A stretch of DNA of 64,000 bases from a virus. Position numbers and translations under genes: made by a program. The stretch's first letter is position 1, and each line of letters begins with the position of its first letter. Below, piece after piece: positions 2,000 to 43,273 of the stretch. The notes beneath the pieces are model-generated. The model made no database searches. It was not told the origin of the DNA and saw only the letters and a program-made list of their open reading frames with translations. The DNA is taken from positions 1-64,000 of IMG/VR virus record IMGVR_UViG_3300047673_000158. One strand, given 5' to 3'.

Positions 2000-2062
2000 A
2001 GCGACAAAGGGCTGGTGCAACGCCAGCCCTGAAAGCGACTTTCATAAAAAAAGGAATCATCC

Positions 2063-2362
2063 ATGGCTACCAAAACCGACCCGAAGAAAAAGCCCGAAGA
2101 CTTCGTGGAGTATGGCGAAGGCTTCGCGGACATTGAATTGTCGCGCCCGCTTGACGTGGCAGGCGTTCCGGTGAAGAAACTCCGCATGCGCGAGCCGACC
2201 GTCCGTGACCAGCTTGTGTATGACAAGCTGAAGGGAAGCGACATTGAGCGCGAAATAACCATTTTCGCCAATCTGTGCGAAATGGATGAAAAGCAGATGC
2301 AAACCCTTTCCGTGCGCGACTACCGGCGCGTGTCGGCGGCCTACTCGGGTTTTCTGGACTAG
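2063..2362 (+). CDS. Tail assembly chaperone (P2 gpE-like)
   Basis: LRMREPTVRD motif; between tube and tape measure. Confidence 0.88.
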   Translation: MATKTDPKKKPEDFVEYGEGFADIELSRPLDVAGVPVKKLRMREPTVRDQLVYDKLKGSDIEREITIFANLCEMDEKQMQTLSVRDYRRVSAAYSGFLD

Positions 2363-2505
2363 CGCCCGCGCTTATCCGACGTGGTGTGCTTTCCCTGGCC
2401 AGCCATACCGGCTGGGGTGAATCGGAAATATTAGGCATGGCCGCTTCGCGGTTCCTGTGGTGGATCGACGGTCTAAACGAACTGACAGCGAGCGATGGCG
2501 AATAA
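2347..2505 (+). CDS. gpE'-like extension reached by -1 ribosomal frameshift at G GGT TTT (2347-2353)
   Basis: In-phase XXXYYYZ slippery site just before the gpE stop; -1 frame reads LAPALIRRGVLSLASHTGWGESEILGMAASRFLWW, open and conserved in both copies. Confidence 0.82.
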   Translation, partial: GFSGLAPALIRRGVLSLASHTGWGESEILGMAASRFLWWIDGLNELTASDGE

Positions 2506-4537
2506 GCGGCTAAATGCCACAATCGTAATTGGCGGCACGATTTCCGGCGCGCTTAAGGGCGCGCTGGGTGCAGCCCAAAACGGGCTGAAGCAAATCACCA
2601 GCGAAATGGGGCGCGTGACCAAGCGCCAGGTTTTGCTGGGAAAGTCTATCCAGACGTTTTCCCGCATGGGCAAAGACGTTTCGGCACTGCGAAACGAGTA
2701 TGCGAAAACCGTTTCGACGCTTGACAACCTGCGTCGCGCGCAGGAACGGCTAAACAAATCCCAGGCGAGCTACACCAGCGCAAAGGAAACCCGTTCGAAG
2801 TTGAACGGCGCCGCCGTTAAATCGGGCGCGGCCGGGCTGGCCATTGGTGGCGTGCTGTCTACGGGAATCCACGCCGCTGTTAGCCGCGAAAACGAAGTAA
2901 ACATCATCAAGAATTCTGGCATTTCTGCGGAAGACCAGAAGGCGCTGATTTCGGCCGCCAGCGGTTCGCGCCAGTTCGGCGTTTCAGTAACGGATGCTTT
3001 CAAGACCGCGCGAGAATTGCAGGCGTCTTTGGGCAGCGTGCACCACGCGGTGGAGGCGCTGCCGCTTGCACTTAAAGCGCGTTCCGGGCTGCAACTCTAC
3101 AACCGAGAGCATGCGGGGCACGAAGTCAGCGAAGACGCAATTTACGCGCTGACGAAGATTGCAGACGAGCGCGGCGGGGCGTCTAGCGCAGAAGAAATGC
3201 GCAAGCAAATGAATGCCGCGTTCAAGGGCATTACGGCATCGCAGGGCAAGGTTTCCGCAGAAGACTGGCTGACTGCGCAGCGTGGCGCGAAGGCCGCAGG
3301 TATCGGCGCGAAAAATGAAGCGTTTTTCGGTGATTCATTCATGGTTCAGGCGCTGAGTGCGGCGGGCTATGGTAAGTCACTAAGCACGCTGAATAACGCC
3401 TGGATCGGCGGGCACCAGGACGCGCACAAGTTCACCAACATGCTGAAAGATGGCCTGCTGGACCCTAAAAAGGTGAAGCTAAAAAATGGCTTGGTGACAG
3501 GTTATACGTCTGATGCTCTGTACGGTAGCAAACTGCTGATTCAGGATCAACAGGCATGGGTGGAAAAATACCTGCTTCCGCTTGCCAAGAAAAAAGGCGT
3601 GAACCTGAAGGATTCCGCCGCAGTCCAGAAATTCACCGCTGATTACACGTCGAACACGAACGCTGGCAATGTGCTGTTCCAGCGCATGTTTAACCATGAA
3701 GCCATTGGCCGCGACCGTGGATGGTATGGAACAGCGCACGACGCCGAGCAATCGGACCAGGAAAACCAGAAATCGACGGCGGGCAAGATGGACAACGCCC
3801 GCGCCCGGCTGGATGACGCGCAGACCCGCGTGGGCGACGTGCTTATCCCGACTTTCGCCAGCGCCATGGAACGCCTGGCCACGGGGCTGGAATCCGTCAA
3901 CAAATTCGCGGACGCAAACCCGAAGCTGATGGAAGGCGTAGTGCTGGGCCTGGGTGGCCTGGCGGTGGGCCTGACAGTGGCAGCGCCCATTCTGGCCACG
4001 GTGGGCGGCGCCCTGACGCTTATTGCAGGAATCAAGCTGGCGCGTGCGGTTGCTTCGCTGCGCGATCTGAAGACGGCCGCAGAAGGCGTGGGACCGGCAA
4101 CGGGCGGCGCAGCGAAGGGCATATGGGGATTTCTCGGAAAGCTGGGGCTGGTGGCGGGGCTGGTGGAAACCGGGCTGGCCGTGGCGAAGGCTGCCGGGCT
4201 GCCTGACGTGGACAAGGAAAAGGGCTCGGACGACGTTAAAAACGGCCGCTGGTGGGCCGCGTCGGCGCACCTGAACCCGGTTGATTTCGGCGCGGCCGTA
4301 TGGCGTCACATGACGGGGAAAGACCAGGACGCAGGCCAGGCCGCCGCGCCGACCATCCCGCCGATTGCGAGCGGCCGAAGCGGTGGTGGGCAGACCATCG
4401 ACCAACGCCAGTATCACGTGGAATTCCACCAGCAGCCTGGCCAATCCGGCAAAGACGCAGCCCGCGAGGTGGTAACGCAGCTTGGCGCACCGCACGCGGC
4501 GGCGCTGGGTTCCGGGCTTTACGATTCGGGAATGTAA
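2495..4537 (+). CDS. Tail tape measure protein
   Basis: 680 aa, Ala/Gly-rich, helical with hydrophobic segments; position after chaperone. Confidence 0.9.
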   Translation: MANKRLNATIVIGGTISGALKGALGAAQNGLKQITSEMGRVTKRQVLLGKSIQTFSRMGKDVSALRNEYAKTVSTLDNLRRAQERLNKSQASYTSAKETRSKLNGAAVKSGAAGLAIGGVLSTGIHAAVSRENEVNIIKNSGISAEDQKALISAASGSRQFGVSVTDAFKTARELQASLGSVHHAVEALPLALKARSGLQLYNREHAGHEVSEDAIYALTKIADERGGASSAEEMRKQMNAAFKGITASQGKVSAEDWLTAQRGAKAAGIGAKNEAFFGDSFMVQALSAAGYGKSLSTLNNAWIGGHQDAHKFTNMLKDGLLDPKKVKLKNGLVTGYTSDALYGSKLLIQDQQAWVEKYLLPLAKKKGVNLKDSAAVQKFTADYTSNTNAGNVLFQRMFNHEAIGRDRGWYGTAHDAEQSDQENQKSTAGKMDNARARLDDAQTRVGDVLIPTFASAMERLATGLESVNKFADANPKLMEGVVLGLGGLAVGLTVAAPILATVGGALTLIAGIKLARAVASLRDLKTAAEGVGPATGGAAKGIWGFLGKLGLVAGLVETGLAVAKAAGLPDVDKEKGSDDVKNGRWWAASAHLNPVDFGAAVWRHMTGKDQDAGQAAAPTIPPIASGRSGGGQTIDQRQYHVEFHQQPGQSGKDAAREVVTQLGAPHAAALGSGLYDSGM

Positions 4538-4540
4538 GAC

Positions 4541-7521: not shown

Positions 7522-7602
7522 GCTGAAAGTCCCTTTCATGTTGTTTTTCGTTTAAACGCGAAGCACTGTAACAGGCTTTTACGTTTAAACGCAAAAGAAC
7601 GT

Positions 7603-7633
7603 AAAAAAGCCCGTGGTGAAGAAACCACGGGCC
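7603..7633 (-). terminator. Intrinsic terminator after ssb
   Basis: GCCCGTGGT/ACCACGGGC stem followed by T6 on the minus strand. Confidence 0.75.
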
Positions 7634-7660
7634 TATCGTTTTCAGCTATTAAGCGATCGC

Positions 7661-8128: not shown

Positions 8129-8164
8129 GAAAGTTACTTTCCGAAAGTGTGTGTGGTGCTGCTG

Positions 8165-9227: not shown

Positions 9228-10201
9228 TATTCCGCCCCTTCCAGCGCCGCATTCACGCCCGCCAGTTCAGCGCCGCCCGCTTGGGCTTCGGTGCGTTGCT
9301 TGTCGAATGCTGCGGCTTGGTCTTTCAGGTCTTCCGGGCAGCCCTTGGTGCTGATGCGCTTTTTGATCGCGGCCGGTACGGCTGCCCACGCCTTCACCAG
9401 TTCGGCGGTGCCCTTCGCCGCTTCCAGGCGCAGCGCGTCCAGCGTGCGTTGCTTTTCTTCGTCCACCTTGGTGCCGCCGTCCACCCATTCACGGATGCGC
9501 TGGCCGTGTTCATAGCCCAGGAAGCCCGTATGCCAGCCGACCGTTCCCACGATTTCTTCCAGGTCCGGGTGGCTTTTCAGCACTTCGCGCTGTTTGCCGC
9601 CGTCGTACATCATGATCGACACGGTAAGTTCGAACGGGAAATTCTTTTCGCAAATCGGCTGGATGCCCTGCGGTTCGTATTCCGTCTTGCCGTTGACCCT
9701 CACCATTTTGGTTTTTTCGCGGGCACGCATACACGCGATAATGTGCATCGGCGACGACAGCAGCGCATTGACAAAGCGTTTGTGTTCCGCCTTAGCGTCG
9801 TTCCACTTGGCGATTTTCAGCGACGAGCCGGGCGGGTTCGCGATTTCTTCACAGCCGCCCGTGCCTTCCCATTCGTGGGATACGCTGTCGGTAATGAGCA
9901 CTTCGAAGCCTGCGTGGGCCGCCGCTTCAATCACGTCAATGTAGCGTTGCGGGCTGAACGGTGCGTACAGGTCGTGAATCATGAATTTTTTCACGTTACC
10001 TTCTGCGTCCCGCAGGACGTTAGCAAACAGACGGCCGCGCCGGTTTTCCGTGCAGACGAAACCAATTTTCGACGTGTCGCCCTTAACGATACCGTGGGCG
10101 ATTTCCAGCGCCGTGCGGGTCTTGCCGCCGCCGCTGACGCCAGCCAGGCCAATAACGAGCCGGGCGCCTTCGCGCTCCGCAACTTCAAATTTGATAGTCA
10201 C
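9227..10201 (-). CDS. AAA_24/Sak4-like ATPase (putative ssDNA-annealing recombinase)
   Basis: Walker A GVSGGGKT, Walker B VLITDS.SHEW; lies between exonuclease and ssb. Confidence 0.82.
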   Translation of the reverse strand: MTIKFEVAEREGARLVIGLAGVSGGGKTRTALEIAHGIVKGDTSKIGFVCTENRRGRLFANVLRDAEGNVKKFMIHDLYAPFSPQRYIDVIEAAAHAGFEVLITDSVSHEWEGTGGCEEIANPPGSSLKIAKWNDAKAEHKRFVNALLSSPMHIIACMRAREKTKMVRVNGKTEYEPQGIQPICEKNFPFELTVSIMMYDGGKQREVLKSHPDLEEIVGTVGWHTGFLGYEHGQRIREWVDGGTKVDEEKQRTLDALRLEAAKGTAELVKAWAAVPAAIKKRISTKGCPEDLKDQAAAFDKQRTEAQAGGAELAGVNAALEGAE

Positions 10202-10216
10202 TTTCTTATGTTCCTT

Positions 10217-11567: not shown

Positions 11568-13013
11568 ATGGCCGTAGTTCTCAGGGAATACCAATCCGAA
11601 CTGATCGCGCAGGCGCGGCAAGCCCTGCGCAGGACTAAACGCGTCCTGATTCAATCGGCCACGGGATCGGGCAAAACGGCGCTGGCCACACACATGGCTA
11701 TCGAGTCGGTGGGGCGCGGCCGGAAAGTGAATTTCATCTGCCATCGCGCCGAACTGGTGGACGGCACCAGCAAGACATTCCACAAGTTTGGATTGCCCCA
11801 CGGCTTCATTGCGGCCGGGCGGCCTATGACCGTTCAGACCATGGCGAACGTGTGCAGCATTGACACGCTGAAAGCCCGGCTGGAACAGGTTAAGGCGCCC
11901 GACGTGGCCATATGGGACGAGTGCCACCACATGGGCGCAGCGGGCTGGCAACTTGTCATGAAGGCTTGGCCTGACACGTACCACATAGGGCTGTCCGCGA
12001 CACCGTGGCGGCTGGATGGCACGGGGCTGGGTGATTTCTTCGATGAAATGGTCATGGGTCCGTCCGTGGCCTGGCTGATCGAGGAAGGGCACCTGTCGGA
12101 ATATCGGGTGTATGCGCCGCACGTGCCCGACATGAAGGGCGCGCGTAAGTCTATGGGCGACTTCGCCAAGGCCGACGCAGCCGAACGCATGGACAAGCCC
12201 AAACTAACCGGCGACACAATCGAGCATTGGAAGCGGCTTGCAGCCGGAATGCGAACGGTGGTTTTCGCCACCACGATTGCGCACAGCGAACACGTGGCCG
12301 AACAGTTCAACGCGGCAGGCGTGCCCGCTGCGCACCTGGATGGAAACACGCCCAAAGCGCTGCGCCGACAAATCATCCAGGACTATGCGGCCGGGGAAAT
12401 CCTGGTGCTGTGCAATGTGGACCTGTTCGGGGAAGGATTCGACCTGGCCAGCATCGCGCAATGTGACGTGACGATTGATTGCGTAATCATGCTGCGGCCG
12501 ACACACAGCCTTTCTTTGTTCCTGCAAATGGTGGGCCGCGCGCTGCGCCCGTACCTTGGCAAAGTCGCTGTGATCCTGGACCAGGCGGGCAACACGCTGC
12601 GCCACGGCTTCCCCGATGACGAACGCGAATGGCAACTGGAAGGCCGCGACAAAAAGAAAGGCAGCAAAAAACCGGAAGGGCCGCCGCCACCAATCACCTG
12701 CGACAAGTGTTTTCAGCAAATCCGCCGACCGCTGCCGCCGAAGTGCCCGACGTGCCAGAAAATCCTGCTGGGCGAAGCGAAGCTGCCGGAATCCGACGAC
12801 GGCGAACTGGTGGAAATCACAGAAGCGGAGAAGAAACGACGGCGCGCGATCCTGCGGCAGGAGGAAGCCGAAGCGAAGGATTTAGGCGCGCTGATCGCGC
12901 TAGGGGCAAGGCGAGGCTACAAAAACGCAACCGGCTGGGCGCATAAGAAATTCCAGAATAGCCCTTGGCGAAAGCAGCTTTCTGAAAAACAACAGACTGC
13001 GGTGGGCGTGTAA
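11568..13013 (+). CDS. Superfamily 2 DEAD/DEAH-type helicase with C-terminal Zn ribbon
   Basis: LREYQ, ATGSGKT, DECHH, SATP, QMVGRALR; CDKC...CPTC. Confidence 0.95.
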   Translation: MAVVLREYQSELIAQARQALRRTKRVLIQSATGSGKTALATHMAIESVGRGRKVNFICHRAELVDGTSKTFHKFGLPHGFIAAGRPMTVQTMANVCSIDTLKARLEQVKAPDVAIWDECHHMGAAGWQLVMKAWPDTYHIGLSATPWRLDGTGLGDFFDEMVMGPSVAWLIEEGHLSEYRVYAPHVPDMKGARKSMGDFAKADAAERMDKPKLTGDTIEHWKRLAAGMRTVVFATTIAHSEHVAEQFNAAGVPAAHLDGNTPKALRRQIIQDYAAGEILVLCNVDLFGEGFDLASIAQCDVTIDCVIMLRPTHSLSLFLQMVGRALRPYLGKVAVILDQAGNTLRHGFPDDEREWQLEGRDKKKGSKKPEGPPPPITCDKCFQQIRRPLPPKCPTCQKILLGEAKLPESDDGELVEITEAEKKRRRAILRQEEAEAKDLGALIALGARRGYKNATGWAHKKFQNSPWRKQLSEKQQTAVGV

Positions 13014-13208: not shown

Positions 13209-13303
13209 AGAAAATCGCTTTCGAAGTCGCAGGGGGTGTGGTGCTGGGCCTGGTGCTGATGATTGGCCCGATCCTGGACGGTCTTCGTAACATCGCGGCC
13301 TGA
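13205..13303 (+). CDS. Small membrane protein (32 aa)
   Basis: MKKIAFEVAGGVVLGLVLMIGPILDGLRNIAA; GGGAG upstream; conserved in copy 2 (56550-56648). Confidence 0.6.
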   Translation: MKKIAFEVAGGVVLGLVLMIGPILDGLRNIAA

Positions 13304-13642: not shown

Positions 13643-14623
13643 ATGGCAGAGAAGCAAAAATCGTATCGTGACCTGATCGCAGAAGGCACGGCATCCCGCG
13701 CGAACGCCATCAAAGTACGCATTCAGGACATTTACGAACAGCCGGGCTTTAACCTGCGCGACCCTGACGCCGTGGACGAAAACGGCGAAACGTTCGAGGA
13801 AGGAATTAACCGCTTCGCGGAATACATCGCGGCCGGTGGCACGTTCCCGCCGATTGAAATTCGCATTCGAAGCGAAGGTGGCGTGTGGGTGGTGGACGGA
13901 CACCGCCGACGCCTTGCTGTGCTGCGCGCCATGGAATTGGGCGCACCGCTGGCCGATAAAAACGGCGACGTGTGGATTCACACTATCGCGTTCGAAGGCA
14001 ATGACGTAGACCGCCTTACGCGCATCATGACGTCCAACGAGTCGCGCAAGTTGACCGACCTGGAACGCGCGAACGGTTACAAGCGGCTGGCTGCATTCGG
14101 TTTGTCGTCCAGCGACATTGCCGCGCGAGTGGGCCGCAGCCGCCCGCACGTCGAACAGCTTTTGATCCTGGCGAACGCTAACCACGACGTGCAGGAAATG
14201 GTTAAGGCCGGGAAGGTATCGGCCACGGCTGCCATTGACCTGGTGCGGAAGGAAGGCGAAAACGCAGGCGCCGTGCTGGGTGAAAAGGTGGCGGCAGCCG
14301 GTGGCGGGCGCGTGAAGAAAGGCGACCTGAAACCGGCCGGGCTGCCGCGCAAGGTGGTGGACGAAGTAACCGACGCGCTGGGCTGGTTCAGGAAACACGG
14401 GCTGAATGCGGAACAGCGCAAGGTGGTGGCCCGCGCAGAGAAAGACAACGCCCACGCCGACGCGGTGGTGGAAGTGACGGCGGGCGCGCTGGCCGAACTG
14501 ATGAAAGCGGCCGGGCTGGTGGAAGAAACCCGCAAGCAGCAGGCGGCGAAGGCGGCCGAAAAGGCAGCGAAGGCCAGCCAGGGCGAACTGCCCGAAGACG
14601 GCGCAGAACAGGACGCGGCGTAA
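13643..14623 (+). CDS. ParB-like protein (ParB N-terminal domain plus HTH)
   Basis: GFNLR, VVDGHRR, LTDLERA, IAARVGRSRPHVEQLL; AGGAG RBS. Confidence 0.88.
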   Translation: MAEKQKSYRDLIAEGTASRANAIKVRIQDIYEQPGFNLRDPDAVDENGETFEEGINRFAEYIAAGGTFPPIEIRIRSEGGVWVVDGHRRRLAVLRAMELGAPLADKNGDVWIHTIAFEGNDVDRLTRIMTSNESRKLTDLERANGYKRLAAFGLSSSDIAARVGRSRPHVEQLLILANANHDVQEMVKAGKVSATAAIDLVRKEGENAGAVLGEKVAAAGGGRVKKGDLKPAGLPRKVVDEVTDALGWFRKHGLNAEQRKVVARAEKDNAHADAVVEVTAGALAELMKAAGLVEETRKQQAAKAAEKAAKASQGELPEDGAEQDAA

Positions 14624-16431: not shown

Positions 16432-16676
16432 AGAAAGTCGCTTTCGTGCTTTATCCGGGTTTCGTCACTTCGCAGAACGACGGACAGCGCCACTATATTA
16501 CCGCCGATGAACTGGCCAGGCTTTACGGGCTTCAGCCAGGCACGTGGGTGGTGTATCAGCCGCCGCGAGCATTCGACCGGGCGGCAAGCTGGCGAAGAAA
16601 CCCGTATGAAGGATTGAAAGCGATTTTCCCGCGCAACGATGGCCAGCATCCGATTTTCGAAAAGGGGCAACCATGA
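16428..16676 (+). CDS. Hypothetical protein
   Basis: PGFVTSQNDGQRHYITA conserved in copy 2. Confidence 0.7.
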   Translation: MKKVAFVLYPGFVTSQNDGQRHYITADELARLYGLQPGTWVVYQPPRAFDRAASWRRNPYEGLKAIFPRNDGQHPIFEKGQP

Positions 16677-21612: not shown

Positions 21613-21633
21613 ACCCGCGCGATAGTCACTTTC

Positions 21634-26303: not shown

Positions 26304-26788
26304 TGGCTCGCATAACAGCACAGCAAGCGGGCGGGGCGAACCGCGTTGCGTTTCTGGACATGATCGCGCATTCGGAAATCGGCGCGGCGCTGCTGGCGGA
26401 GTCGGACGACGGCTATAACGTGCTGGTGGGATCGACGCCAGCAAAGCCGCTGATTTTCCCGTCGTATGCAACGCATCCGAACGTGTTGAATCGGGCGCTG
26501 AATTCGACGGCGGCCGGGCGCTATCAATTGCTGTTCCGCTGGTTCAAGGCGTATGCGGCATTGCTGAAGCTAACGGATTTCAGCCCGCTGTCGCAAGACA
26601 TGATTGCATTGCAGCAGATTCGCGAGCGGGGCGCATTTCCGCTGATCGACGCGGGCCAGTTCGAAACGGCCGTCGAGCGCTGTTCGAACATTTGGGCATC
26701 GCTGCCCGGCAATTCGTATGGCCAGCATATGAACGATATCAAGGCGCTGAAAGTCGCTTTCGTTAATGCGGGCGGGGTGGCGGCATGA
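26303..26788 (+). CDS. Endolysin, lambda R-like lytic transglycosylase
   Basis: AFLDMIAHSE, STAAGRYQ, DFSPLSQD, IWASLPG..YGQ. Confidence 0.95.
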   Translation: MARITAQQAGGANRVAFLDMIAHSEIGAALLAESDDGYNVLVGSTPAKPLIFPSYATHPNVLNRALNSTAAGRYQLLFRWFKAYAALLKLTDFSPLSQDMIALQQIRERGAFPLIDAGQFETAVERCSNIWASLPGNSYGQHMNDIKALKVAFVNAGGVAA

Positions 26789-27215: not shown

Positions 27216-27430
27216 AGCGAGCATTGATTGGCGCGGCAATCGGCAGCGTGTTGGCGCGCAAGAGTGGCACGGTTGTGTCCATGGGCGGCGAACCCGTTGG
27301 CCTAGCGCGAGCGGATTTCAAAGATCGCATTGCAGCCATGCAAATGCGCGGAACGATTCGGACGTGCGTTAAGAATGCGCGGCGTGAATACAACCGCATG
27401 GCGGGCAGCGACAAACTGCCGAAGCCGTGA
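27212..27430 (+). CDS. Hypothetical protein
   Basis: ATGA-coupled; GAGGG RBS. Confidence 0.5.
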   Translation: MKRALIGAAIGSVLARKSGTVVSMGGEPVGLARADFKDRIAAMQMRGTIRTCVKNARREYNRMAGSDKLPKP

Positions 27431-27506
27431 TAGTCGCTTTCGCAATTGCAGTTCCGGTGGCGCTGGGGTTTGGCGCCTTCGTGTATCGGTTGACGGGGGA
27501 AATCAC

Positions 27507-27974
27507 ATGGCAGGACTGAGCATTTACGCAAAGCTGGTGGCAGCGGCAATCGTGGCGCTGCTGATAGTCGCTTTCGGCTGGCATGAATACAAGGCCGGTG
27601 AAACGGCAGGCATGGCAGCGGTGCAGCAGAAGTGGGACCGGCAAACGGCTGCTGTGAGCCAGGCAACCACGGTGGCAGTGACGGCAGCGGCGAGCGATGC
27701 GCTGGCGAATTACAAGGCGGCTGGTGCGAGTGCGCAGCAGGCCGACGAACACAAGGCGCAGCAGGCTGCTGTGCGGGCCGATTTCAAATCACAGGTGCAG
27801 GACTATGCGAATCATCATGATGGGGCAAACGCCGGGCAAGACGCGACCGGGAATGCTGGCTGCGCTGCTGGGCTTGGCGCTGACGGGCTGCGCATCTGGA
27901 ACAGCGCCAATGCAGCCGCTAACGGTGGTGGTGCCGTCAAGCCATCCGACAGTGCGGCAAGCGTTGCTCAATGA
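27507..27974 (+). CDS. Inner-membrane spanin (Rz-like)
   Basis: N-terminal TM, Ala/Gln helical body, C-terminal C..GLGADGLRIWN. Confidence 0.8.
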   Translation: MAGLSIYAKLVAAAIVALLIVAFGWHEYKAGETAGMAAVQQKWDRQTAAVSQATTVAVTAAASDALANYKAAGASAQQADEHKAQQAAVRADFKSQVQDYANHHDGANAGQDATGNAGCAAGLGADGLRIWNSANAAANGGGAVKPSDSAASVAQ

Positions 27975-29527: not shown

Positions 29528-29540
29528 GAAAGCCACTTTC

Positions 29541-32109: not shown

Positions 32110-33689
32110 TGGGAATGTTCGATTTCATTCGCTCGCGTGGGCTGATGCCCGCCCGCGCCGTCGAAATGCCGTCCACCACGCCACCTTCGCGCCCGGCGCG
32201 CGCCCTTCGCGCTGCTGGCCGCGCGATCCGTTCCGCGATGCAGTTCAATGCTGCGGGCTTTGACCGTTTAAACGCAACATGGACCGGCACGGCGCTGCCC
32301 GCTGACTGGATCATTACGAGGAACTATCGCCCACTTGTCGCGCGTTCGCGCGAACAGGCGATGAACAACGACTATGCGCGGGCGTTCCTGCGCATGTGTA
32401 GCCAGAACATCGTGGGGCCGAAAGGCATAACCATGAAAGCCGCTTTCCAGAAAGCGGACGGCAGCCACGACGCTGACACCAGCCGGGCGCTGAAGGCCGC
32501 ATGGGAACAGTGGGGCCACAAAAGCACGGCTGACGTGGCGGGCAAAAAGTCGTGGCGCGCTATCCAGCGCTTGCTGGTTAAAAGCGCGGTGCAGGACGGT
32601 GAATTTTTCCTGCGCATCGTGACGGGCAAAGACGCCGGAAAGTGGGGTTTCGCGGTGCAGGTGATCGACCCGCTGCGGGTGCCTGTCGATTACAACGTGG
32701 ACCGCTACAACCAAAGCAACTTCATTCGCCACGGCATCGAATTTACCCGCTTCGGCCGCCCGGTGGCCTACCACCTTTCGACGGTGGACGACGGCGAAGC
32801 CGAATATGAGTATGCGGGCGTCGGTTACACGACCGTACCGGCCGACCAGATGGTGCACGGCTTCCTGGAAGACATGGTGGGCCAGAAGCGCGGACTGCCC
32901 TGGATGGCCACGGCGCTGTTTCGTATGCGGAATATGGGCGCATTCGAAGACGCGGCAATCATCAACGCCCGTGTCGGCGCGTCAAAAATGGGCTTCGTCC
33001 AGTGGAAGGAAGGGCAGGCGCCTGAATTTGAAGACGGCGACGACCCGACGAGCCTGGAATTCGACGCTGAACCGGGCTCATTCAACGTGCTGCCAGAAGG
33101 CGCGGAAATGAAGGAATGGCTGCCGCAATACCCCAGCGGCGAGTTCCTTCCCGTGTTCAAAACTCTGCTGCGCGGCGCAAGCGCTGGCTTTGGTGTTTCG
33201 TATAACAACCTGGCCAGCGACCTGGAAGGCGTCAATTTTTCGAGTATCCGCCAGGGCACGCTGGACGAACGCGAACACTGGAAAGAGTTGCAGGAATGGC
33301 TTATTGAAGACGCCATTCAGCCGGTGCAGGAAGCGTGGCTGCGCTATTCGCTGCTGAAAGGGCGAATCAAGGTTAAAGGAAAGCCGCTTTCACCTGCGCT
33401 TCTGGACGAACTGCAAGGCGCGATTAGCTGGCAGCCGCGCCGCTGGCAGTGGATCGACCCAACGGCCGACGTAGCCGCCGCCGTGGAGTCGAAAAACAAC
33501 CTGCTAACCAGCGCCGGGCGAATCATCCGTGAATGGGGCGGCGACCCTGACGAAATCTTTGCAGACATTGCCGCAGACATTAAGGCGATGGAAGCCGCTG
33601 GCATTGACGAGAAATACATTCTGGCATCCATGGGCCAGGCGCTTGCGCCGCCGCCCGTGGCGTCAGAAGGCAGCCACCCGAACAGCTAA
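32109..33689 (+). CDS. Portal protein, lambda family
   Basis: ARSRE...NNDYA, QDGEFF, GIEF...GRPVAYH, QKRGLP, VNFSSIR, WIDP. Confidence 0.95.
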   Translation: MGMFDFIRSRGLMPARAVEMPSTTPPSRPARALRAAGRAIRSAMQFNAAGFDRLNATWTGTALPADWIITRNYRPLVARSREQAMNNDYARAFLRMCSQNIVGPKGITMKAAFQKADGSHDADTSRALKAAWEQWGHKSTADVAGKKSWRAIQRLLVKSAVQDGEFFLRIVTGKDAGKWGFAVQVIDPLRVPVDYNVDRYNQSNFIRHGIEFTRFGRPVAYHLSTVDDGEAEYEYAGVGYTTVPADQMVHGFLEDMVGQKRGLPWMATALFRMRNMGAFEDAAIINARVGASKMGFVQWKEGQAPEFEDGDDPTSLEFDAEPGSFNVLPEGAEMKEWLPQYPSGEFLPVFKTLLRGASAGFGVSYNNLASDLEGVNFSSIRQGTLDEREHWKELQEWLIEDAIQPVQEAWLRYSLLKGRIKVKGKPLSPALLDELQGAISWQPRRWQWIDPTADVAAAVESKNNLLTSAGRIIREWGGDPDEIFADIAADIKAMEAAGIDEKYILASMGQALAPPPVASEGSHPNS

Positions 33690-35713: not shown

Positions 35714-35908
35714 TTGAAAGTGGCTTTCGAACGCGGGGAAGTGCTGGAAGTGCTGAAGCCGTTTTTTGTGGACGGCGAAATGGTTATGCCGGGTGATCGG
35801 GTGGAATTGCTGCGCGCCGACGCCATGCACCTGAAATCACGCGGCATGGTGGTGGCAGAAGGCACCCAGCGGGCCGCCAAGTCGCCCGCCAAGGGCAAGG
35901 CAGCCTGA
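35714..35908 (+). CDS. Small head-associated hypothetical protein
   Basis: TTG start after GGAG; typical post-capsid small beta protein. Confidence 0.65.
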   Translation: MKVAFERGEVLEVLKPFFVDGEMVMPGDRVELLRADAMHLKSRGMVVAEGTQRAAKSPAKGKAA

Positions 35909-38055: not shown

Positions 38056-38394
38056 ATGAACGGAACCGACGCGACCACTGGAAAGCCGCTTTCAGGCGTT
38101 GAACACCTGCGGCAATCCATAACCGACATTCTCACGACGCCAATAGGCAGCCGTGTGATGCGTCGCGACTACGGCAGCAAGCTGTTCAGCCTGGTTGATG
38201 CCCCAATGAATCTTTACACCGTGTCGCGCGTCTATGCCGCCACGGCGGCCGCGATTCGCAAGTGGGAGCCGCGCTTTAAGGTTACTCGCGTAAGCCTTTC
38301 CAGCGCCGAACCGGGCGCAATCGCGCTGGACATTTCCGGCAATTACCTGCCTGACGGGCAGCCCGTAAAAATCGACGGCATAAAGGTTTCGTAA
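38056..38394 (+). CDS. Baseplate wedge protein (P2 gpW/gp25-like)
   Basis: HLRQSITDILTTPIGSRVMRRDYGS, WEPR. Confidence 0.95.
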   Translation: MNGTDATTGKPLSGVEHLRQSITDILTTPIGSRVMRRDYGSKLFSLVDAPMNLYTVSRVYAATAAAIRKWEPRFKVTRVSLSSAEPGAIALDISGNYLPDGQPVKIDGIKVS

Positions 38395-39901: not shown

Positions 39902-41826
39902 TGGCCAATCTTACAGAAAACGACGCATACGATTCTGGCGTATATCAGTGGGAAACCACCGATTCGGCGCTGGGTGGCCCGCTGGGGGTAATGAACAAGC
40001 CCCTGCTGTCGCTGGTGAACCGTTCGCGTTACCTGCTGAACCGGCTTCTGGACGGAGCGCTGGGCTTCATGGCCGACACGGGCGCGAAAAACGCCATTGC
40101 CACAACGCTGGCCCAGCCAATGCCGGGCCTGGTTGACGGGGTGAAAGTCACTTTCAGGACGAAAGTAACGAACGACGGCGCGGTAACGCTTGCGCTGACG
40201 AACGCGACAGGTGGCCCGACGCTGGCCACGCTTCCCGTGTACGGCAGCGACCAGGCGGCGCTTATCGGCGGCGAACTGCCAGCCGGTTCCGTCGTGAATG
40301 TGCGGCTGAATACGGCGCTGAATGCGGCCAACGGCGGCGCCTGGGTTATCGAGTCGATTTCTGGCGGCTATGCCAACATTCCGACCGCGCCCACGGGCGA
40401 CATGACGAAGAAAGCCGCGAACATGGCGGCCATCTTTGCCGCGACGGACGGCTATCAGGTGGTGGACGTTTCGGGCAGCACGGACACGACGCTAACCCAG
40501 GCGCAGTATGGCGTGGCCATGCTGAAGCTAACCGGCGTGCTGGGCGCTTCGAAAAACCTGATTCTTCCGGCGCAGTCGGGCCAGTGGATTATCGACAACG
40601 AAGCCACGGGCAATTTCAACGTGACGGCGAAGGCTGCGGGCAGCAGCGGCAGCACGGTTATCCTGCCTGCCGGTTCGCCTGTGATCGTGTGCAGCGACGG
40701 CACCAACGTTAAGTTTGCGAGCGCTGGCGGCCAGTCCTACATGAAGGCTTACCCGTTCTCCGGGCTGGCCACGAACACGCTGACGATTACGGGCGGCTAT
40801 ACGCCCGGCGCAATCATTGTCGAGCGGAACGGCGCGCTTCAGGAACCCGGCACGGCCGCGAATCCTGACTACACGGCAACGGACGGCGCAACGATTGTAT
40901 TTAACACGGCGCTGACTTCTGACGAGTACGTGACCGTGTACACGTTCGCCACGTTCAGCGTGGCCAACGCGGTGCAGAAATCCGGCGACACCATGGGCGG
41001 GCCGCTGGCGTTGTATGCGGGATCGACGGTAAGCACGCCTGCTGCGCTGGACAATAGCGCGGCCGTGGCCAATACCGCAGCAATGAATCGCGTGGGCGGC
41101 GTAGTTGGTTCGGTTCGGAATGGCCGCATGGTGGTTGGCGCTGTCAGTTCAACGGCAACCTATACCGCAGACGAAGTGGTGCTGGAAACCGCGCTGGGTG
41201 GTGCGCCGTTCCGCGCGTCGGCAGTCAACCAGGCAATCAACCTGGCAACGACGGGCGCAGGCGGCATTTCCGGTTCGCTGACGGCTTCTGGATTCGCGGC
41301 CACGTATCTGATTTACGGGCCTGTCACTGGCCTGTCGAACATTACGATTGACGCCACCAGCACGGTTGCGCCTGAAGTGTGCCCGGCCGGGAACATTCCG
41401 AGCGGCTACACGGCCAGCGCGCTGGTGAGCGTGTGGCCGCTGAACGCGAGCAAGCAATTTATTGTCGGCTCGCTGATTGATAGGACGGTTAATTTTGCGC
41501 AGACCACTGGCTATTCGGGTTCTGGCGCAATTTCCATTGTCGCTGCGCCAATCGCGTGCGTGCCGAAAAACGCCAAGTTCGGCAGTGGGTCGCTGTCCAT
41601 TACGGTTACAAACAGCGGAATTTCGACGTTCAATGCATTTACGCAAACGGCCGTTGGCGCTTCCACGGCGGTGGTTTCGATAAACACGCCGAATGCGGGC
41701 GGCGGCGGAATGACAATCAATTTTTCGCGTCTTCCGTTCCTCACGCAGCAAACGTGGTATGTGGCGACGACACAAGGCGCGACCATTTCGAACGTTACCC
41801 TTTCACTTGTCGGCTACGAATTCTAA
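39901..41826 (+). CDS. Tail fibre protein
   Basis: MANLTE...YQWETTD...GG...N N-terminus; Gly/Thr/Ala-rich modules; KSGDTMGG motif. Confidence 0.85.
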   Translation: MANLTENDAYDSGVYQWETTDSALGGPLGVMNKPLLSLVNRSRYLLNRLLDGALGFMADTGAKNAIATTLAQPMPGLVDGVKVTFRTKVTNDGAVTLALTNATGGPTLATLPVYGSDQAALIGGELPAGSVVNVRLNTALNAANGGAWVIESISGGYANIPTAPTGDMTKKAANMAAIFAATDGYQVVDVSGSTDTTLTQAQYGVAMLKLTGVLGASKNLILPAQSGQWIIDNEATGNFNVTAKAAGSSGSTVILPAGSPVIVCSDGTNVKFASAGGQSYMKAYPFSGLATNTLTITGGYTPGAIIVERNGALQEPGTAANPDYTATDGATIVFNTALTSDEYVTVYTFATFSVANAVQKSGDTMGGPLALYAGSTVSTPAALDNSAAVANTAAMNRVGGVVGSVRNGRMVVGAVSSTATYTADEVVLETALGGAPFRASAVNQAINLATTGAGGISGSLTASGFAATYLIYGPVTGLSNITIDATSTVAPEVCPAGNIPSGYTASALVSVWPLNASKQFIVGSLIDRTVNFAQTTGYSGSGAISIVAAPIACVPKNAKFGSGSLSITVTNSGISTFNAFTQTAVGASTAVVSINTPNAGGGGMTINFSRLPFLTQQTWYVATTQGATISNVTLSLVGYEF

Positions 41827-42366: not shown

Positions 42367-42370
42367 GAAC

Positions 42371-42946
42371 ATGGGCCAAAAACGCGCGGCATATGACGAC
42401 GCCGGAACAATCACGGCGTTCTATGACGATTCAATCAGCCCCGCGCCGCAAGGCGTGGCCACTATTCCGCTAACGACCGACCAGTGGCAAGCGTGCCTGT
42501 CGAGCCAGGGCGGCTATATCGTGCAGAATGGCGCGCTGGTGAATGCGCCGACAGCCACGGCGGCCGAATTGCTGGCAGCCGCGAAAGCCGCCAAGGTGGC
42601 CGAACTGACGGCGGTATGCAGGGCGGCAATTCTCGCTGGCTTCATGTCCAGCGCGCTGGGCACGCCGTACAGTTATCCGGCGAAAGACACGGACCAGCAG
42701 AACCTTAACGCGTCCGTGGTGGCGTCGCTGCTGCCGGGCCTGGCTGACGATTGGGCGACGCCATTCTGGTGCGCCGACGCGCAGGGCGTGTGGGCATTCC
42801 GCATGCACACCGTGGCGCAAATCCAGCAGGTTGGCAAAGACGGCAAGGCCGCGATTGTGGCCGCCATGGTGAAAAACCAGGCGCTGGCCGACCAGGTGGC
42901 AGCCGCCACCACCGTGGCCGACGTTGAAGCCATCGCCTGGGCCTGA
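42371..42946 (+). CDS. Tail fibre assembly/DUF4376-like protein
   Basis: GFMSSALGTPYSYP...DQQNL...HTVAQIQQVG...VEAIAW. Confidence 0.75.
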   Translation: MGQKRAAYDDAGTITAFYDDSISPAPQGVATIPLTTDQWQACLSSQGGYIVQNGALVNAPTATAAELLAAAKAAKVAELTAVCRAAILAGFMSSALGTPYSYPAKDTDQQNLNASVVASLLPGLADDWATPFWCADAQGVWAFRMHTVAQIQQVGKDGKAAIVAAMVKNQALADQVAAATTVADVEAIAWA

Positions 42947-42948
42947 CC

Positions 42949-43248
42949 ATGAAAGCGCGTGCAAAACTGGTTTTGCTGTGGGCCATGTGCGCCGCGTTTT
43001 CCGGCGTGCTGCTGCTGGCCATGCTAGTGCAGGCGCTTTTCGGTTCCGAAGCGCGAGCGCTGAATATGGCAATCGCCTATGACGAGTGCGCCAACGCGCT
43101 TTTCGGGGACGACCCGAAGGTGACGATTTCGGAACGCACGGGCAATGCGCTGATCGCGGGCAAGCGCTGGGCGAAGTTGGCGGCGCCGTGCATTGATTTC
43201 ATTTTCGGGCCTGGCCACTGCCTGGCGCGCGCCACCACACCACACTGA
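42949..43248 (+). CDS. Conserved phage membrane-associated hypothetical protein
   Basis: N-terminal TM; D...NALFG.DP..TIS.R.G...WA...ID.IF..GHC. Confidence 0.7.
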   Translation: MKARAKLVLLWAMCAAFSGVLLLAMLVQALFGSEARALNMAIAYDECANALFGDDPKVTISERTGNALIAGKRWAKLAAPCIDFIFGPGHCLARATTPH

Positions 43249-43273
43249 AAGCGACTTTCAAGCGGCAGCCATT

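What the first reader, a model, noticed from the sequence alone, without database searches (positions are those of the whole stretch)
2031..43259. Genome-wide dispersed 13-bp palindrome GAAAG-N3-CTTTC: candidate parS/operator network
Seen: perfect copies start at 2031, 7525, 8129, 12970, 16433, 26749, 29528, 32435, 33379, 35716, 38081, 40143 and 43247. GATAG-N3-CTTTC variants lie at 10193, 21621, 26219, 27429 and 27563. Other one-mismatch copies lie at 5918, 11723, 13210, 16616, 20744 and 30210. A 10-position pattern is expected well under 0.1 times in 43 kb. Copies fall in different reading frames (KAAF, GKPLS, RKQLS), so protein sequence does not explain them. Many sit on start codons or RBSs (ssb, SprT-like, ATPase, terL, post-capsid ORF) or beside terminators. 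They are kept in copy 2 (45369, 50872, 51489, 53538, 56315), and at 51489 only the spacer changed. Inference: these are binding sites for a phage dimeric protein, with the orphan ParB-like protein (no ParA present) the best candidate. They could act as dispersed centromere-like sites, a genome-coating or protection scaffold, or stoperator-like roadblocks.
Basis: partly seen in the sequence, partly recalled or inferred. Interest (0 to 1): 0.85.

Follow-up and report, generated by a model that had tools for sequence, protein, structure and literature searches.

The report
Phage-wide palindrome sites, orphan ParB candidate
A 43-kb phage writes one 13-15-letter DNA palindrome about every 2.4 kb through its genome, even altering its own proteins to do so, most likely as docking sites for a phage DNA-binding protein; the best but unproven candidate is its partner-less ParB/KorB-type clamp.

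Summary
Observation confirmed. GAAAG-N3-CTTTC occurs 17 times in the window (0.06 expected) and GATAG-N3-CTTTC 6 times (0.05 expected). The full word is tGAAAG-YNR-CTTTCa.

The sites are under selection:
- Arms change about 3-fold less than flanks in two genomes about 13% diverged.
- 9 of 15 sites of a relative with only 55-80% protein identity sit at orthologous places.
- The portal protein was changed (LQAQx to MKAAF) to hold one site.

The word marks phage DNA. One bacterial isolate genome holds 12 copies on a free 42.4-kb phage contig and 5 in the other 7.36 Mb.

A natural module swap points to a reader encoded in the early module. Proviruses with an equally related late module, but a foreign early module plus an integrase, keep 1 perfect site and decayed relics.

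The orphan ParB/KorB-type protein (13643-14623) is the best candidate. Its recognition helix is invariant in all motif-bearing genomes. Jilinvirus relatives have a different ParB-like helix, a different dispersed palindrome (AACAAT-N-ATTGTT), and one copy just upstream of that gene in 5 of 5.

Against this, 7 relatives with a ParB-like gene have no such network, and binding is untested.

This scan has noted orphan ParB plus dispersed palindromes before on other phage DNA (unchecked AI notes). I found no description in the papers I searched.

The parts
2031..2043 (.). perfect site GAAAGCGACTTTC, between the tail tube terminator and the tail-chaperone start (19 nt upstream of the ATG)
   Evidence: Conserved in copy 2 and G001. 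Orthologous site in G004. 1-mismatch relic in G011.
7525..7537 (.). perfect site 3 nt upstream of the SprT-like start (minus strand)
   Evidence: Conserved. Orthologous in G004.
8129..8141 (.). perfect site abutting the SSB start codon (minus strand)
   Evidence: Arms kept while the spacer changed in copy 2 and G001.
10193..10205 (.). half-variant GATAGTCACTTTC at the exonuclease VIII | AAA-ATPase junction, with a GTG start inside the spacer
   Evidence: Conserved. Does not fold as an RNA hairpin.
12970..12982 (.). perfect site inside the helicase gene, 31 nt before its stop
   Evidence: Conserved.
13210..13222 (.). one-mismatch site GAAAATCGCTTTC at codons 2-6 of a 32-aa membrane ORF, 433 nt upstream of the ParB-like start
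   Evidence: The orthologous place is a perfect site in G004.
13643..14623 (+). orphan ParB/KorB/Noc-type protein, 326 aa: candidate reader of the sites
   Evidence: PF17762 HTH_ParB E=1.4e-10. phrog_1033. Boxes II and III align to Spo0J 1VZ0 and ParB 7BNR. Model pLDDT 76.7. Best fold match is KorB 8QA9, E=1.4e-8. Recognition helix invariant in motif-bearing genomes.
16433..16445 (.). perfect site in the arrangement stop, 1 nt, site, GTG start
   Evidence: One mismatch (GAAAA) in copy 2 and G001.
21621..21633 (.). half-variant GATAGTCACTTTC, intergenic, just before a terminator-like hairpin
26219..26231 (.). half-variant GATAGTCGCTTTC (reads L-I-V-A-F) in the lysis region
26749..26761 (.). perfect site near the 3' end of the endolysin gene
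   Evidence: Not kept in copy 2 or G001.
27429..27441 (.). half-variant GATAGTCGCTTTC at a gene junction in the lysis region
27563..27575 (.). half-variant GATAGTCGCTTTC inside a membrane-protein gene (L-I-V-A-F)
29528..29540 (.). perfect site filling the whole gap between the HNH stop (TGA) and the terL ATG
   Evidence: Same arrangement in G004. 2-mismatch relic in G011.
32435..32447 (.). perfect site in the portal gene (codons 109-113, M-K-A-A-F)
   Evidence: 12 of 13 motif-free relatives read (L/M/F)-Q-(A/S)-(Q/K) here. Kept in G004 and also in G011 and G009.
33379..33391 (.). perfect site in the portal gene (about codon 424, G-K-P-L-S)
   Evidence: Orthologous in G004.
35716..35728 (.). 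perfect site over the start of the ORF after the capsid gene
   Evidence: Orthologous in G004. 2-mismatch relic in G011.
38081..38093 (.). perfect site in the N-terminal codons of the baseplate W-like gene (G-K-P-L-S)
   Evidence: Orthologous in G004. 1-mismatch relic in G011.
40143..40155 (.). perfect site inside the tail-fibre gene
   Evidence: Arms kept while the spacer changed in G001.
43247..43259 (.). perfect site overlapping the stop of ORF 42949-43248, upstream of the sheath gene
   Evidence: Conserved in G001. Orthologous in G004.
45369..45381 (.). copy-2 counterpart of 2031
50872..50884 (.). copy-2 counterpart of 7525
51489..51501 (.). copy-2 counterpart of 8129; only the spacer changed
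53538..53550 (.). copy-2 counterpart of 10193 (GATAG variant)
56315..56327 (.). copy-2 counterpart of 12970
56988..57971 (+). copy-2 ParB-like gene (95% identical protein)

Best explanation
The palindromes are cis-acting docking sites on double-stranded phage DNA.

The most probable reader is the partner-less ParB/KorB/Noc-type protein (13643-14623). Each half of a dimer would read one tGAAAGY half-site through its helix-turn-helix. By analogy with KorB, Noc and ParB, it would then close as a nucleotide-dependent clamp and slide away. About 18 strong sites, spaced about 2.4 kb apart, would therefore mark or coat the whole 43-kb genome and only that genome.

What the marking achieves is inferred. 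It is most likely maintenance or organisation of an integrase-less, extrachromosomal phage genome, or genome-wide control of transcription.

Shown here:
- enrichment of the word;
- selection on the sites;
- specificity for phage DNA;
- dependence on the early module;
- the ParB fold of the candidate.

For: 1. Enrichment. 17 copies against 0.06 expected. Synonymous-codon shuffles do not regenerate the in-gene copies.

2. Selection on the arms. Arm substitutions are 6 of 160 (copy 2) and 8 of 180 (G001). Flanks within 20 nt show 70 of 625 and 85 of 707. Arms are intact in 14 of 16 and 16 of 18 sites, against 0.46-0.48 for random windows; P = 7e-4 and 4e-4. Spacers changed while arms were kept at 8129, 33379 and 40143.

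3. Deep conservation. G004 has 55-80% protein identity yet carries 12 perfect plus 3 half-variant sites. 9 of its 15 sites are at places orthologous to sites here.

4. The protein yields to the DNA. At portal codons 109-113, 12 of 13 motif-free relatives read (L/M/F)Q(A/S)(Q/K)x, while the motif lineage reads MKAAF. At about codon 424, GR(P/S)L(K/R)P became GKPLSP.

5. The word is not a host word. Genome G013 has 17 copies in 7.4 Mb: 12 on the 42.4-kb phage contig and 5 in the remaining 7.36 Mb, with a control pattern at 3. That is 416-fold.

6. Module swap. Proviruses G011 and G009 share the late module at 47-79% identity, like G004. None of the early genes 7661-25051 is found in them, there is no ParB-like match, and G011 has an integrase. 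They hold 1 perfect and 1 half-variant site. At four orthologous places they carry relics with 1-2 mismatches.

7. ParB as the candidate.
- It has a ParB/KorB/Noc fold.
- The recognition helix RSRPHVEQ[LM]LILANANHDV is identical in 4 of 4 motif-bearing genomes. RSRPHVEQ occurs in 9 of 9 database homologues of 65% identity or more.
- Other early helix-turn-helix proteins diverge in their reading helices: 16021 is 34-39% identical, and only half of 17576 is found in G004.
- Five Jilinvirus-type phages share another helix, RSPSDV.N.LALA.
- Those five also share another dispersed palindrome, with 8, 5, 2, 6 and 6 perfect ACAATNATTGT.
- One copy lies about 16-76 nt upstream of their ParB-like gene in 5 of 5.
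- Their ParB-less relative Alexa has no such palindrome.

8. Spacing is somewhat more even than random: CV 0.63, P = 0.03 here, and P = 0.05 in G004.
Against: No binding test was possible.

The module swap removes all early genes together, so it points to the early module, not to ParB specifically.

Seven complete relatives encode a ParB-like protein 42-51% identical: Mano, Mica, phiRSP, PPpW-3, Persinger, FoX1 and PY223. All have 0 copies of the word. My scans for 5+5 palindromes with gaps 0-9 showed no other dispersed palindrome in them. A ParB-like gene is therefore not sufficient.

Mica, L068, L123 and L124 share the helix start SRPHV but lack the word.

In this phage no site lies next to the ParB-like gene. 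The nearest are 433 nt upstream (one mismatch) and 661 nt upstream.

Single copies near ParB-like genes looked enriched in 76 viral loci: 18 against 0-4 for 17 control words. This rests on about 10 independent events, the loci have dissimilar helices, and it was not repeated in 25 bacterial loci, where the count was 2 against 0-2.

Pfam's ParBc model (PF02195) did not match at E <= 0.01. The box III glutamate aligned to Spo0J is a serine, so the nucleotide chemistry may differ from ParB's.

6 of 18 sites touch start codons. A pure DNA-docking model explains this only indirectly, through free space and GAAAG doubling as a ribosome-binding site.
Confidence: 0.5

Rival explanations
1. The sites are operators of a different early-module DNA-binding protein, acting as dispersed repressor, roadblock or timing sites. 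Candidates are the lineage-specific 136-aa helix-turn-helix protein 16021-16431, the Zn-ribbon protein 17005-17493, the tandem-HTH protein 17576-17968, and small unknown proteins such as 15710-15928 or 20462-20656.
For: The module swap implicates the whole early module.

Several early genes are found only in motif-bearing genomes: 15710, 16021, 17005, 20462 and 24470. ParB-like genes, by contrast, also occur in 7 motif-free relatives.

Site 16433 abuts the stop of 16021-16431.

Jilinvirus-type phages also have group-specific small proteins besides ParB: hyp43 and hyp44 in 5 of 5, and HTH42 in 4 of 5.
Against: The reading helices of 16021 and 17576 differ between this phage and G004 although the word is the same. 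Protein 16021 is only 34-39% identical in G003 and G004.

None of these proteins has a PHROG family, and none has a Pfam match above its curated cut-off apart from the HTH and Zn-ribbon matches of 17576 and 17005.

No integrase and no homologue of the CI-like HTH of Mano or Mica was found, so a lysogeny repressor is unlikely.
Confidence: 0.25
2. The word acts in RNA. A 5-bp hairpin, or a GAAAG ribosome-binding element paired with a CUUUC anti-element, sits at translation starts and is read by a translational regulator or tunes coupling between genes.
For: 6 of 18 strong sites touch or lie within 5 nt of a start codon, against 0.67 expected.

At terL, SSB and ORF 16446 the site fills the gap before the start. 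That places GAAAG 8 nt upstream, a typical Shine-Dalgarno distance.

These junction sites are kept in G004.
Against: The hairpins are weak. Minimum free energies are -1.7 to -3.9 kcal/mol, with z-scores of -0.7 to -2.6. The conserved GATAG variant at 10193 does not fold at all (0 kcal/mol).

Many conserved sites lie deep inside genes, in the portal (twice), the helicase and the tail fibre.

The Jilinvirus word, ACAAT-N-ATTGT, is not start-associated.

A perfect palindrome is what a dimer on duplex DNA needs. A single-strand reader does not need one.
Confidence: 0.06
3. The word is a self-mark read by something other than a phage repressor or ParB. Possibilities are a host protein recruited to phage DNA, or a phage nuclease or defence-evasion system that spares or targets DNA according to the word.
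For: The word is 416-fold denser on the phage contig than in the rest of the host genome, as a self/non-self mark would be.

Sites are spread fairly evenly.

The phage carries other anti-defence-type genes, such as an Acb2/Tad1-like protein.
Against: A host reader would not explain why sites decay when only the phage early module is exchanged, unless the host also changed.

The methyltransferase-like gene 14623-15336 is absent from motif-bearing G004.

No nuclease with matching distribution was identified.
Confidence: 0.1

Closest known systems
KorB and its OB operators on IncP-1 plasmid RK2 (PMC11790492, passages read; the number of 12 OB sites is recalled)
   Same: A ParB-family protein reads a 13-bp palindrome that is scattered in about a dozen copies over a mobile replicon. 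The OB oligonucleotide in the paper contains TTTAGCGGCTAAA. KorB binds CTP, clamps, and slides from distal sites. The KorB-KorA-DNA complex 8QA9 is the best fold match of the protein here (E=1.4e-8, TM 0.66 on the target). Pfam also gives a weak KorB-domain match.
   Different: KorB has a ParA partner (IncC; recalled) and the clamp-locking KorA. No ParA (PF13614) was found here, and a KorA-like partner was not looked for. The word differs. Here there are 18-26 sites in 43 kb, many of them inside genes, with amino-acid changes made to hold them. The replicon is a tailed phage.
Noc and its Noc-binding sites on the Bacillus subtilis chromosome (fold matches 7NFU, 7OL9; biology recalled)
   Same: A ParB-family protein without a ParA partner, reading a palindrome dispersed in many copies over a whole replicon. 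Fold match E=4.9e-8.
   Different: Noc is chromosomal and acts in cell-division control through membrane binding (recalled). No such role is suggested here, and the word differs.
Stoperators of Cluster A mycobacteriophages (PMC9283540, abstract read)
   Same: Numerous 13-bp repressor sites are distributed across a phage genome, including between and within genes.
   Different: Stoperators are asymmetric, are read by a monomeric immunity repressor, and act in lysogeny. Here the word is a palindrome, no integrase was found, and no homologue of the relatives' CI-like gene turned up.
Dispersed sopC centromere sites of the linear plasmid-prophage N15 (recalled; search listing only)
   Same: A phage that lives as an episome carries several ParB-type (SopB) palindromic sites scattered over its genome.
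   Different: N15 has SopA (ParA), a protelomerase and only a few sites (recalled). No ParA was found here, and there are about 18 or more sites.
AACAAT-N-ATTGTT network of Jilinvirus-type phages
   Same: The same phage family carries a 13-bp palindrome in 2-8 perfect copies plus variants. Some copies sit at analogous places: the tube|chaperone gap, after the capsid gene, and in the helicase, ATPase and primase. These phages encode an orphan ParB-like gene.
   Different: The word is different. The ParB-like type is different (28-35% identical) and sits at another map position. One site lies directly upstream of that gene. Most of these phages carry an integrase gene.

Membership tests
ParB/KorB/Noc-type proteins (for protein 13643-14623) | ParB-type helix-turn-helix DNA-binding domain | tested here: met
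   PF17762 HTH_ParB, E=1.4e-10, 41.6 bits against a cut-off of 22.6. phrog_1033 E=6.5e-67.
ParB/KorB/Noc-type proteins (for protein 13643-14623) | N-terminal ParB/Srx (CTPase) fold with the GxxR arginine patch (box II) and box III | tested here: met
   VDGHRRR aligns to VAGERRY, and SNESRKLTDLE to ENLQREDLSPVE, of Spo0J 1VZ0. Also matches 7BNR and 6SDK. Fold matches to KorB, ParB-CTPgammaS and Noc at E of 1e-8 to 1e-6. Caveats: PF02195 was not matched at E<=0.01, and the first box III glutamate is a serine.
ParB/KorB/Noc-type proteins (for protein 13643-14623) | Binds CTP (or another NTP) and closes as a clamp on DNA | not testable with these tools
   Needs biochemistry.
ParB/KorB/Noc-type proteins (for protein 13643-14623) | Binds a cognate palindrome | not testable with these tools
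   Indirect evidence only: the helix is invariant where the word is present.
ParABS partition system | ParA ATPase partner encoded with ParB | tested here: not met
   PF13614 (AAA_31) gave no match in G000, G001 or G004, while the control genomes matched 14 of 14. Only this one ParA model was tried. No LG[KR]GL-type motif is seen in the N-terminus as printed (the motif definition is from PMC12704722).
KorB-OB type dispersed operator network | Many copies of one short palindrome dispersed over the replicon that encodes the ParB-family reader | tested here: met
   13 perfect plus 5 half-variant sites per 43.3 kb, and the ParB-family gene is present.
KorB-OB type dispersed operator network | Sites control promoters, with a clamp-locking co-repressor (KorA/TrbA) | not tested
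   No search for a KorA-like partner was made. Separate promoter-like words exist and do not coincide with the sites.
Stoperators | Asymmetric site with one orientation relative to transcription, read by an immunity repressor of a temperate phage | tested here: not met
   The word is a palindrome. The half-variants point one way here (5 of 5 on +) but the other way in G004 (3 of 3). No integrase was found.
RNA hairpin / translational operator | Stable conserved stem with compensatory changes, located at translation starts | tested here: not met
   Energies are -1.7 to -3.9 kcal/mol. The 10193 variant is unfolded. Uncompensated GATAG variants are conserved. Sites also lie deep inside genes.

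The most novel reading that the evidence does not exclude
An orphan ParB-type clamp plus a genome-wide set of loading palindromes forms a ParA-independent system. It would let an integrase-less tailed phage persist as a free episome, or otherwise set its DNA apart from the host chromosome.

In evolutionary terms it would take the place of the integration module. The sister proviruses have an integrase, no ParB and decaying sites. A motif-bearing relative sits as a free 42.4-kb contig with terminal repeats in a bacterial isolate assembly.

The same logic may recur with other words in many phage lineages: Jilinvirus here, and other cases noted by this scan.
Probability: 0.25. Interest if true: 0.85.

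Novelty: new variant of a known kind. Interest (0 to 1): 0.72.

Why it matters
Orphan ParB-fold proteins are common in phages and prophages, and their roles are largely open (PMC12704722, passages read).

This case offers a concrete, testable pairing. There is a 15-bp word that is 416 times denser on phage than on host DNA. It has been conserved for a long time and was strong enough to reshape protein sequences. It is tied to the phage's early module.

If the ParB-type protein reads it, a plasmid-style KorB/Noc-like genome-marking system operates in tailed phages. That could explain the lifestyle of this phage group, which the BASEL paper calls enigmatic (PMC11990801, passages read).

A culturable isolate appears to carry a relative, so the experiment is within reach.

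Tried and rejected
- **Coding or codon bias as the cause.** Rejected by the synonymous-codon shuffles and by the amino-acid changes in the portal.

- **Methyltransferase target.** The gene 14623-15336 (phrog_757) is absent from motif-bearing G004 and is found elsewhere only in KA2-1. Not required.

- **HNH endonuclease 28946-29527 as the determinant.** Homologues occur in motif-free phiRSP, L060, L066 and FoX1.

- **Promoter element.** Separate promoter-like words exist. AACCCCGCCGTGG has 4 perfect copies and does not coincide with the sites. The sigma-70 scan was uninformative: 6 found against 5.2 expected.

- **A degenerate version of the word (GAAA-N5-TTTC) in ParB-bearing relatives.** Mano has 6, phiRSP 5 and Mica 4, against about 1 expected. 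Neighbouring spacings N3 and N4 are equally raised, so this is not specific.

- **A palindrome just upstream of the ParB-like gene in Mano, Mica, phiRSP, PPpW-3 and Persinger.** Nothing dispersed was found.

- **One-mismatch palindrome scan.** Too noisy with a mononucleotide null.

- **General link between type-A ParB-like genes and single copies of the word.** The count was 18 against 0-4 in 76 viral loci but 2 against 0-2 in 25 bacterial loci. In 50 metagenome loci, 4 had one copy each, three of them at one conserved place inside the gene. Left as ambiguous.

- **Close relatives of the ParB-like protein.** None in genome contigs with the single protein. None above 51% identity in metagenome contigs.

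- **Literature.** Searches and term look-ups for palindrom, inverted repeat, ParB and operator in PMC5539073 and PMC9151335 found no mention. A look-up for Jilinvirus and ParB in PMC11990801 found no mention of ParB. Supplements were not seen and could hold annotations that bear on this.

- **Not done.** No protein-DNA modelling tool was on hand. Complex prediction, sequencing-run look-ups and Rfam were not used.

Full report
**What the window is.** The window is the first 64 kb of an 83,411-bp virus record. The record holds nearly two head-to-tail copies, with a period of 43,337 bp, of a genome of about 43.3 kb. The copies differ by 6-18% in BLAST segments and by 13% over a MAFFT alignment.

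Gene order and protein matches place it among small P2-tailed cos phages of beta- and gamma-proteobacteria: Mano, Mica, phiRSP, PPpW-3, Persinger, FoX, and Jilinvirus ep3, Arya, KA2-1 and HeidiAbel. My own gene calls give this map:
- tail genes at 36-6749;
- a leftward early operon (SprT-like, SSB, Acb2/Tad1-like, DksA-like, AAA ATPase, exonuclease VIII) at 6880-11341;
- a rightward early operon (helicase, small ORFs, ParB-like 13643-14623, methyltransferase-like, VRR-NUC, several small DNA-binding-type proteins, primase) up to about 20.4 kb;
- a variable region;
- a Mor-like gene, the lysis genes, terS, an HNH gene, terL, portal, capsid, and the baseplate and fibre genes.

**The observation.**
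- GAAAG-N3-CTTTC: 17 in the window against 0.06 in shuffles, and 22 in the record against 0 for the reversed control.
- GATAG-N3-CTTTC: 6 against 0.05.
- With up to one mismatch: 37 against 1.7.

The flanks extend the word to tGAAAG-YNR-CTTTCa.

Keeping all protein sequences, codon usage and intergenic DNA while shuffling synonymous codons drops the 13 perfect copies of copy 1 to 7. Those 7 lie in DNA that was not shuffled. In-gene copies are therefore not a by-product of coding, although they favour the frame xxG-AAA-GNN-NCT-TTC.

**Selection.** I aligned copy 1 with copy 2 and with a separate 43,301-bp record, G001.
- Arms show 6 of 160 and 8 of 180 substitutions.
- The 20-nt flanks show 70 of 625 and 85 of 707.
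- Genome-wide the rate is about 13%.
- 14 of 16 and 16 of 18 sites keep both arms intact, against 46-48% of random windows; P = 7e-4 and 4e-4.
- Three sites changed only in the spacer.

A much more distant relative, G004, is a complete 42,413-bp record with terminal repeats and 55-80% identical proteins. It has 12 perfect and 3 half-variant sites. Nine of its 15 sites lie at places orthologous to sites here:
- the HNH|terL junction, where stop, site and ATG follow directly;
- two places in the portal;
- the start of the ORF after the capsid gene;
- the baseplate W N-terminus;
- the tube|chaperone gap;
- the SprT leader;
- the end of ORF 42949-43248;
- the small ORF ahead of the ParB-like gene.

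At portal codons 109-113, 12 of 13 motif-free relatives read (L/M/F)-Q-(A/S)-(Q/K)-x; PY223 aligns poorly. The motif lineage reads M-K-A-A-F. At about codon 424, G-R-(P/S)-L-(K/R)-P became G-K-P-L-S-P. The DNA word has overridden protein conservation.

**DNA or RNA.** As RNA the word gives only weak hairpins, -1.7 to -3.9 kcal/mol. The conserved GATAG variant at 10193 does not fold. Uncompensated GATAG variants are conserved, and conserved sites lie deep inside genes. A perfect palindrome of two 6-7-bp half-sites is what a dimer on duplex DNA reads.

Six of 18 strong sites touch a start codon, against 0.67 expected, and 12 of 18 are not wholly inside a called gene, against 1.9. I read this as sites settling where they cost least. 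In a genome that is 90% coding, the short gene junctions are free. There the purine arm GAAAG, 8 nt before the start, can also serve as a ribosome-binding element. An RNA role is not excluded, and I give it about 6%.

**Phage-specific, not a host word.** A genome in the species collection, G013, has a 42,413-bp contig with the same site coordinates as G004. titles it Caballeronia fortuita isolate LMG 29320 contig000029. In its 7.4 Mb the word occurs 17 times: 12 on that contig and 5 in the other 7.36 Mb, with the reversed control at 3. That is a 416-fold difference in density.

**A natural experiment.** A portal-anchored scan of the viral collection gave two groups.
- 13 loci have portals 75-99% identical (L138-L149 and L155). 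All are motif-rich, with 2-7 perfect copies each.
- 7 loci have portals 71-72% identical (L150-L154, L156, L157, from proviruses). They hold 0-1 perfect copy in 21.5 kb.

Two of these proviruses were read whole. G011 and G009 share the late module with this phage at 38-79% identity, about as close as G004. None of the early genes from 7661 to 25051 is found in them; G009 keeps a 46% SprT match. No ParB-like match was found in G008-G011. G012 also had none, but it is a 52%-complete fragment and says nothing. G011 carries a tyrosine integrase, while G000, G001 and G004 have none.

Each of these proviruses has 1 perfect site, the portal codon-109 site, and 1 half-variant. At four places orthologous to sites here, G011 holds relics with 1-2 mismatches:
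- GAAACTCACTTTC in the tube|chaperone gap;
- GATAACGCCTTTC abutting the terL ATG;
- GAAAATGGCCTTC at the post-capsid ORF;
- GAAAACCGCTTTC in baseplate W.

Perfect sites in the late genes therefore go with the presence of this early module. That is what a trans-acting reader encoded there predicts. I cannot tell whether the relics are decayed sites or precursors.

**Which early protein.** The 326-aa protein 13643-14623 has the following features:
- a ParB-type helix-turn-helix;
- boxes II and III aligned to Spo0J and ParB;
- a model with pLDDT 76.7;
- best structural matches to KorB in its KorA-DNA complex (8QA9, E=1.4e-8), ParB-CTPgammaS, Noc and ParB-parS.

No ParA (PF13614) is encoded.

Its recognition helix, RSRPHVEQ[LM]LILANANHDV, is the same in all 4 motif-bearing genomes for which I had DNA: own, G001, G003 and G004, with ParB identity down to 67%. 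RSRPHVEQ is present in 9 of 9 database homologues of at least 65% identity. The next homologue, at 57%, reads RSRAHVEQ.

The other early helix-turn-helix proteins are much less constant. Protein 16021 is 34-39% identical with a different reading helix, and only the second half of 17576 is found in G004.

**A second, independent lineage.** Five Jilinvirus-type phages carry their own dispersed palindrome, AACAAT-N-ATTGTT.
- Perfect ACAATNATTGT counts: KA2-1 8, Arya 5, MQ-4 2 (plus 11 with one mismatch), ep3 6, HeidiAbel 6, each against about 0.02-0.03 expected.
- Several copies are at analogous places: the tube|chaperone gap, the capsid gene end, and the helicase, ATPase and primase.
- Their ParB-like protein is a different type, 28-35% identical, at another map position. 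It has its own conserved helix, RSPSDV[AR]N[FM]LALA.
- One copy of the word lies about 16-76 nt upstream of that gene in 5 of 5.
- Their relative Alexa has no ParB-like gene and no such word.

**What speaks against ParB.** Seven complete relatives have a ParB-like protein 42-51% identical to this one: Mano, Mica, phiRSP, PPpW-3, Persinger, FoX1 and PY223.
- All have 0 copies of the word.
- None shows another dispersed 5+5 palindrome in my scans.
- Mica and three viral loci share the helix start SRPHV.

The gene is therefore not sufficient, and the network must have expanded separately in two lineages.

The module swap removes every early gene at once. Several small early proteins without any family are as lineage-specific as the word. 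Jilinvirus-type phages likewise have group-specific small proteins.

A possible general excess of single copies near ParB-like genes, 18 against 0-4 for controls in 76 viral loci, rests on about 10 independent events with unlike helices. It was not seen in 25 bacterial loci.

**Function.** The sites are somewhat more evenly spaced than chance: CV 0.63, P = 0.03, largest gap 5.5 kb here, and P = 0.05 in G004. This fits a coverage-type role.

The motif-bearing genomes lack an integrase and a ParA. One motif-bearing relative is a free contig with terminal repeats in an isolate assembly. The sister lineage integrates.

This suggests, but does not show, that the system serves an extrachromosomal state: maintenance, compaction, or separation from host DNA. 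Genome-wide transcription control as with KorB is equally open. Separate promoter-like words exist.

**Comparison and novelty.**
- The closest known system is KorB with its OB operators on RK2 (PMC11790492, passages read).
- Next come Noc with its binding sites (recalled), stoperators (PMC9283540, abstract read) and the N15 sop sites (recalled).
- A recent survey finds orphan ParB-fold proteins widespread in phages and prophages, with open roles (PMC12704722, passages read).
- Its text holds no occurrence of 'palindrom'.
- The papers on this phage group that I searched do not mention such repeats.
- Earlier notes of this scan report the same pairing of an orphan ParB with a dispersed 13-15-bp palindrome in many other phage genomes. 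One of them has the similar word TAAAGTWACTTTA.
- Those notes are unchecked AI notes and I did not test them.

I class the finding as a new variant of a known kind.

**Verdict.** It is a selected, phage-specific set of protein docking sites dependent on the early module (about 0.85 for that much). The function is unresolved.

Noticed in passing
window 7550-7557, 7583-7590, 21671-21678, 28853-28860, 32266-32273; also L005, L006, L010 and other relatives: A second palindrome, (C)GTTTAAAC(G), is enriched across the whole phage family: own 5, Alexa 8, Mica 7, Arya 7, KA2-1 7, MQ-4 6, Mano 4, Persinger 4, PPpW-3 2, phiRSP 0. One copy lies just upstream of the SprT-like gene in 6 of the 10 genomes listed (this phage, Mano, Mica, Arya, KA2-1, MQ-4). 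Some copies are conserved coding (xFKR). It resembles the KorA operator half-sites printed in PMC11790492.
   Followed up: partly
window 31467, 34218, 38010, 43305 (perfect); 25310, 25626, 25676 (one mismatch): AACCCCGCCGTGG occurs in 4 perfect copies on the + strand in the late region: 12 matches at up to 2 mismatches, against 4.2 expected. Versions of it are seen upstream of the baseplate and sheath genes in provirus G011.
   Followed up: partly
whole record G000; window 1-64000: The record is about 1.9 head-to-tail copies of the genome that differ by 6-18%, with indels in the 20-28 kb region. This could be a chimeric assembly of two strains or a real heteroconcatemer. I did not resolve it.
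   Followed up: no
L006 (KA2-1), W05 (Arya), W04 (MQ-4), W06 (ep3), W07 (HeidiAbel): Jilinvirus-type phages carry their own dispersed 13-bp palindrome AACAAT-N-ATTGTT, with one copy directly upstream of their ParB-like gene. This is testable in culturable E. coli phages.
   Followed up: partly
window 28946-29527 (+): A 193-aa HNH endonuclease ORF lies between terS and terL. Its stop is followed directly by a site and then the terL ATG. My gene caller found only its last 45 codons.
   Followed up: partly
window 8165-8443 (-): An Acb2/Tad1 hairpin-domain protein (PF24729, E=2.3e-10), a likely anti-CBASS/Thoeris sponge, found only in the motif-bearing lineage among the relatives compared.
   Followed up: no
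window 13308-13616 (+): A 102-aa Cys-rich (zinc-finger-like) protein, phrog_17384, sits directly upstream of the ParB-like gene. A similar CxC...GYHFPHR peptide precedes the ParB-like gene in PPpW-3 and Persinger, so it may be a conserved partner.
   Followed up: no
L079, L085, L096, L098, L101, L102, L108 (proviruses): A conserved intergenic element, GTCACCGGCGC(T/A)GAAAGTGACTTTC, lies 1-2.8 kb upstream of a distant ParB-like gene (40-42% identical). It sits at the edge of a variable region and contains one perfect copy of the word.
   Followed up: partly
L009 (phiRSP), about 276 nt upstream of its ParB-like gene: An 18-bp perfect palindrome, GTGATGGCGCGCCATCAC, in single copy. It could be that phage's own ParB site.
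   Followed up: no
window 14623-15336 (+): A methyltransferase-like gene (phrog_757, no Pfam match), translationally coupled to the ParB-like gene. It is shared only with KA2-1 (61%) and is absent from G004.
   Followed up: partly
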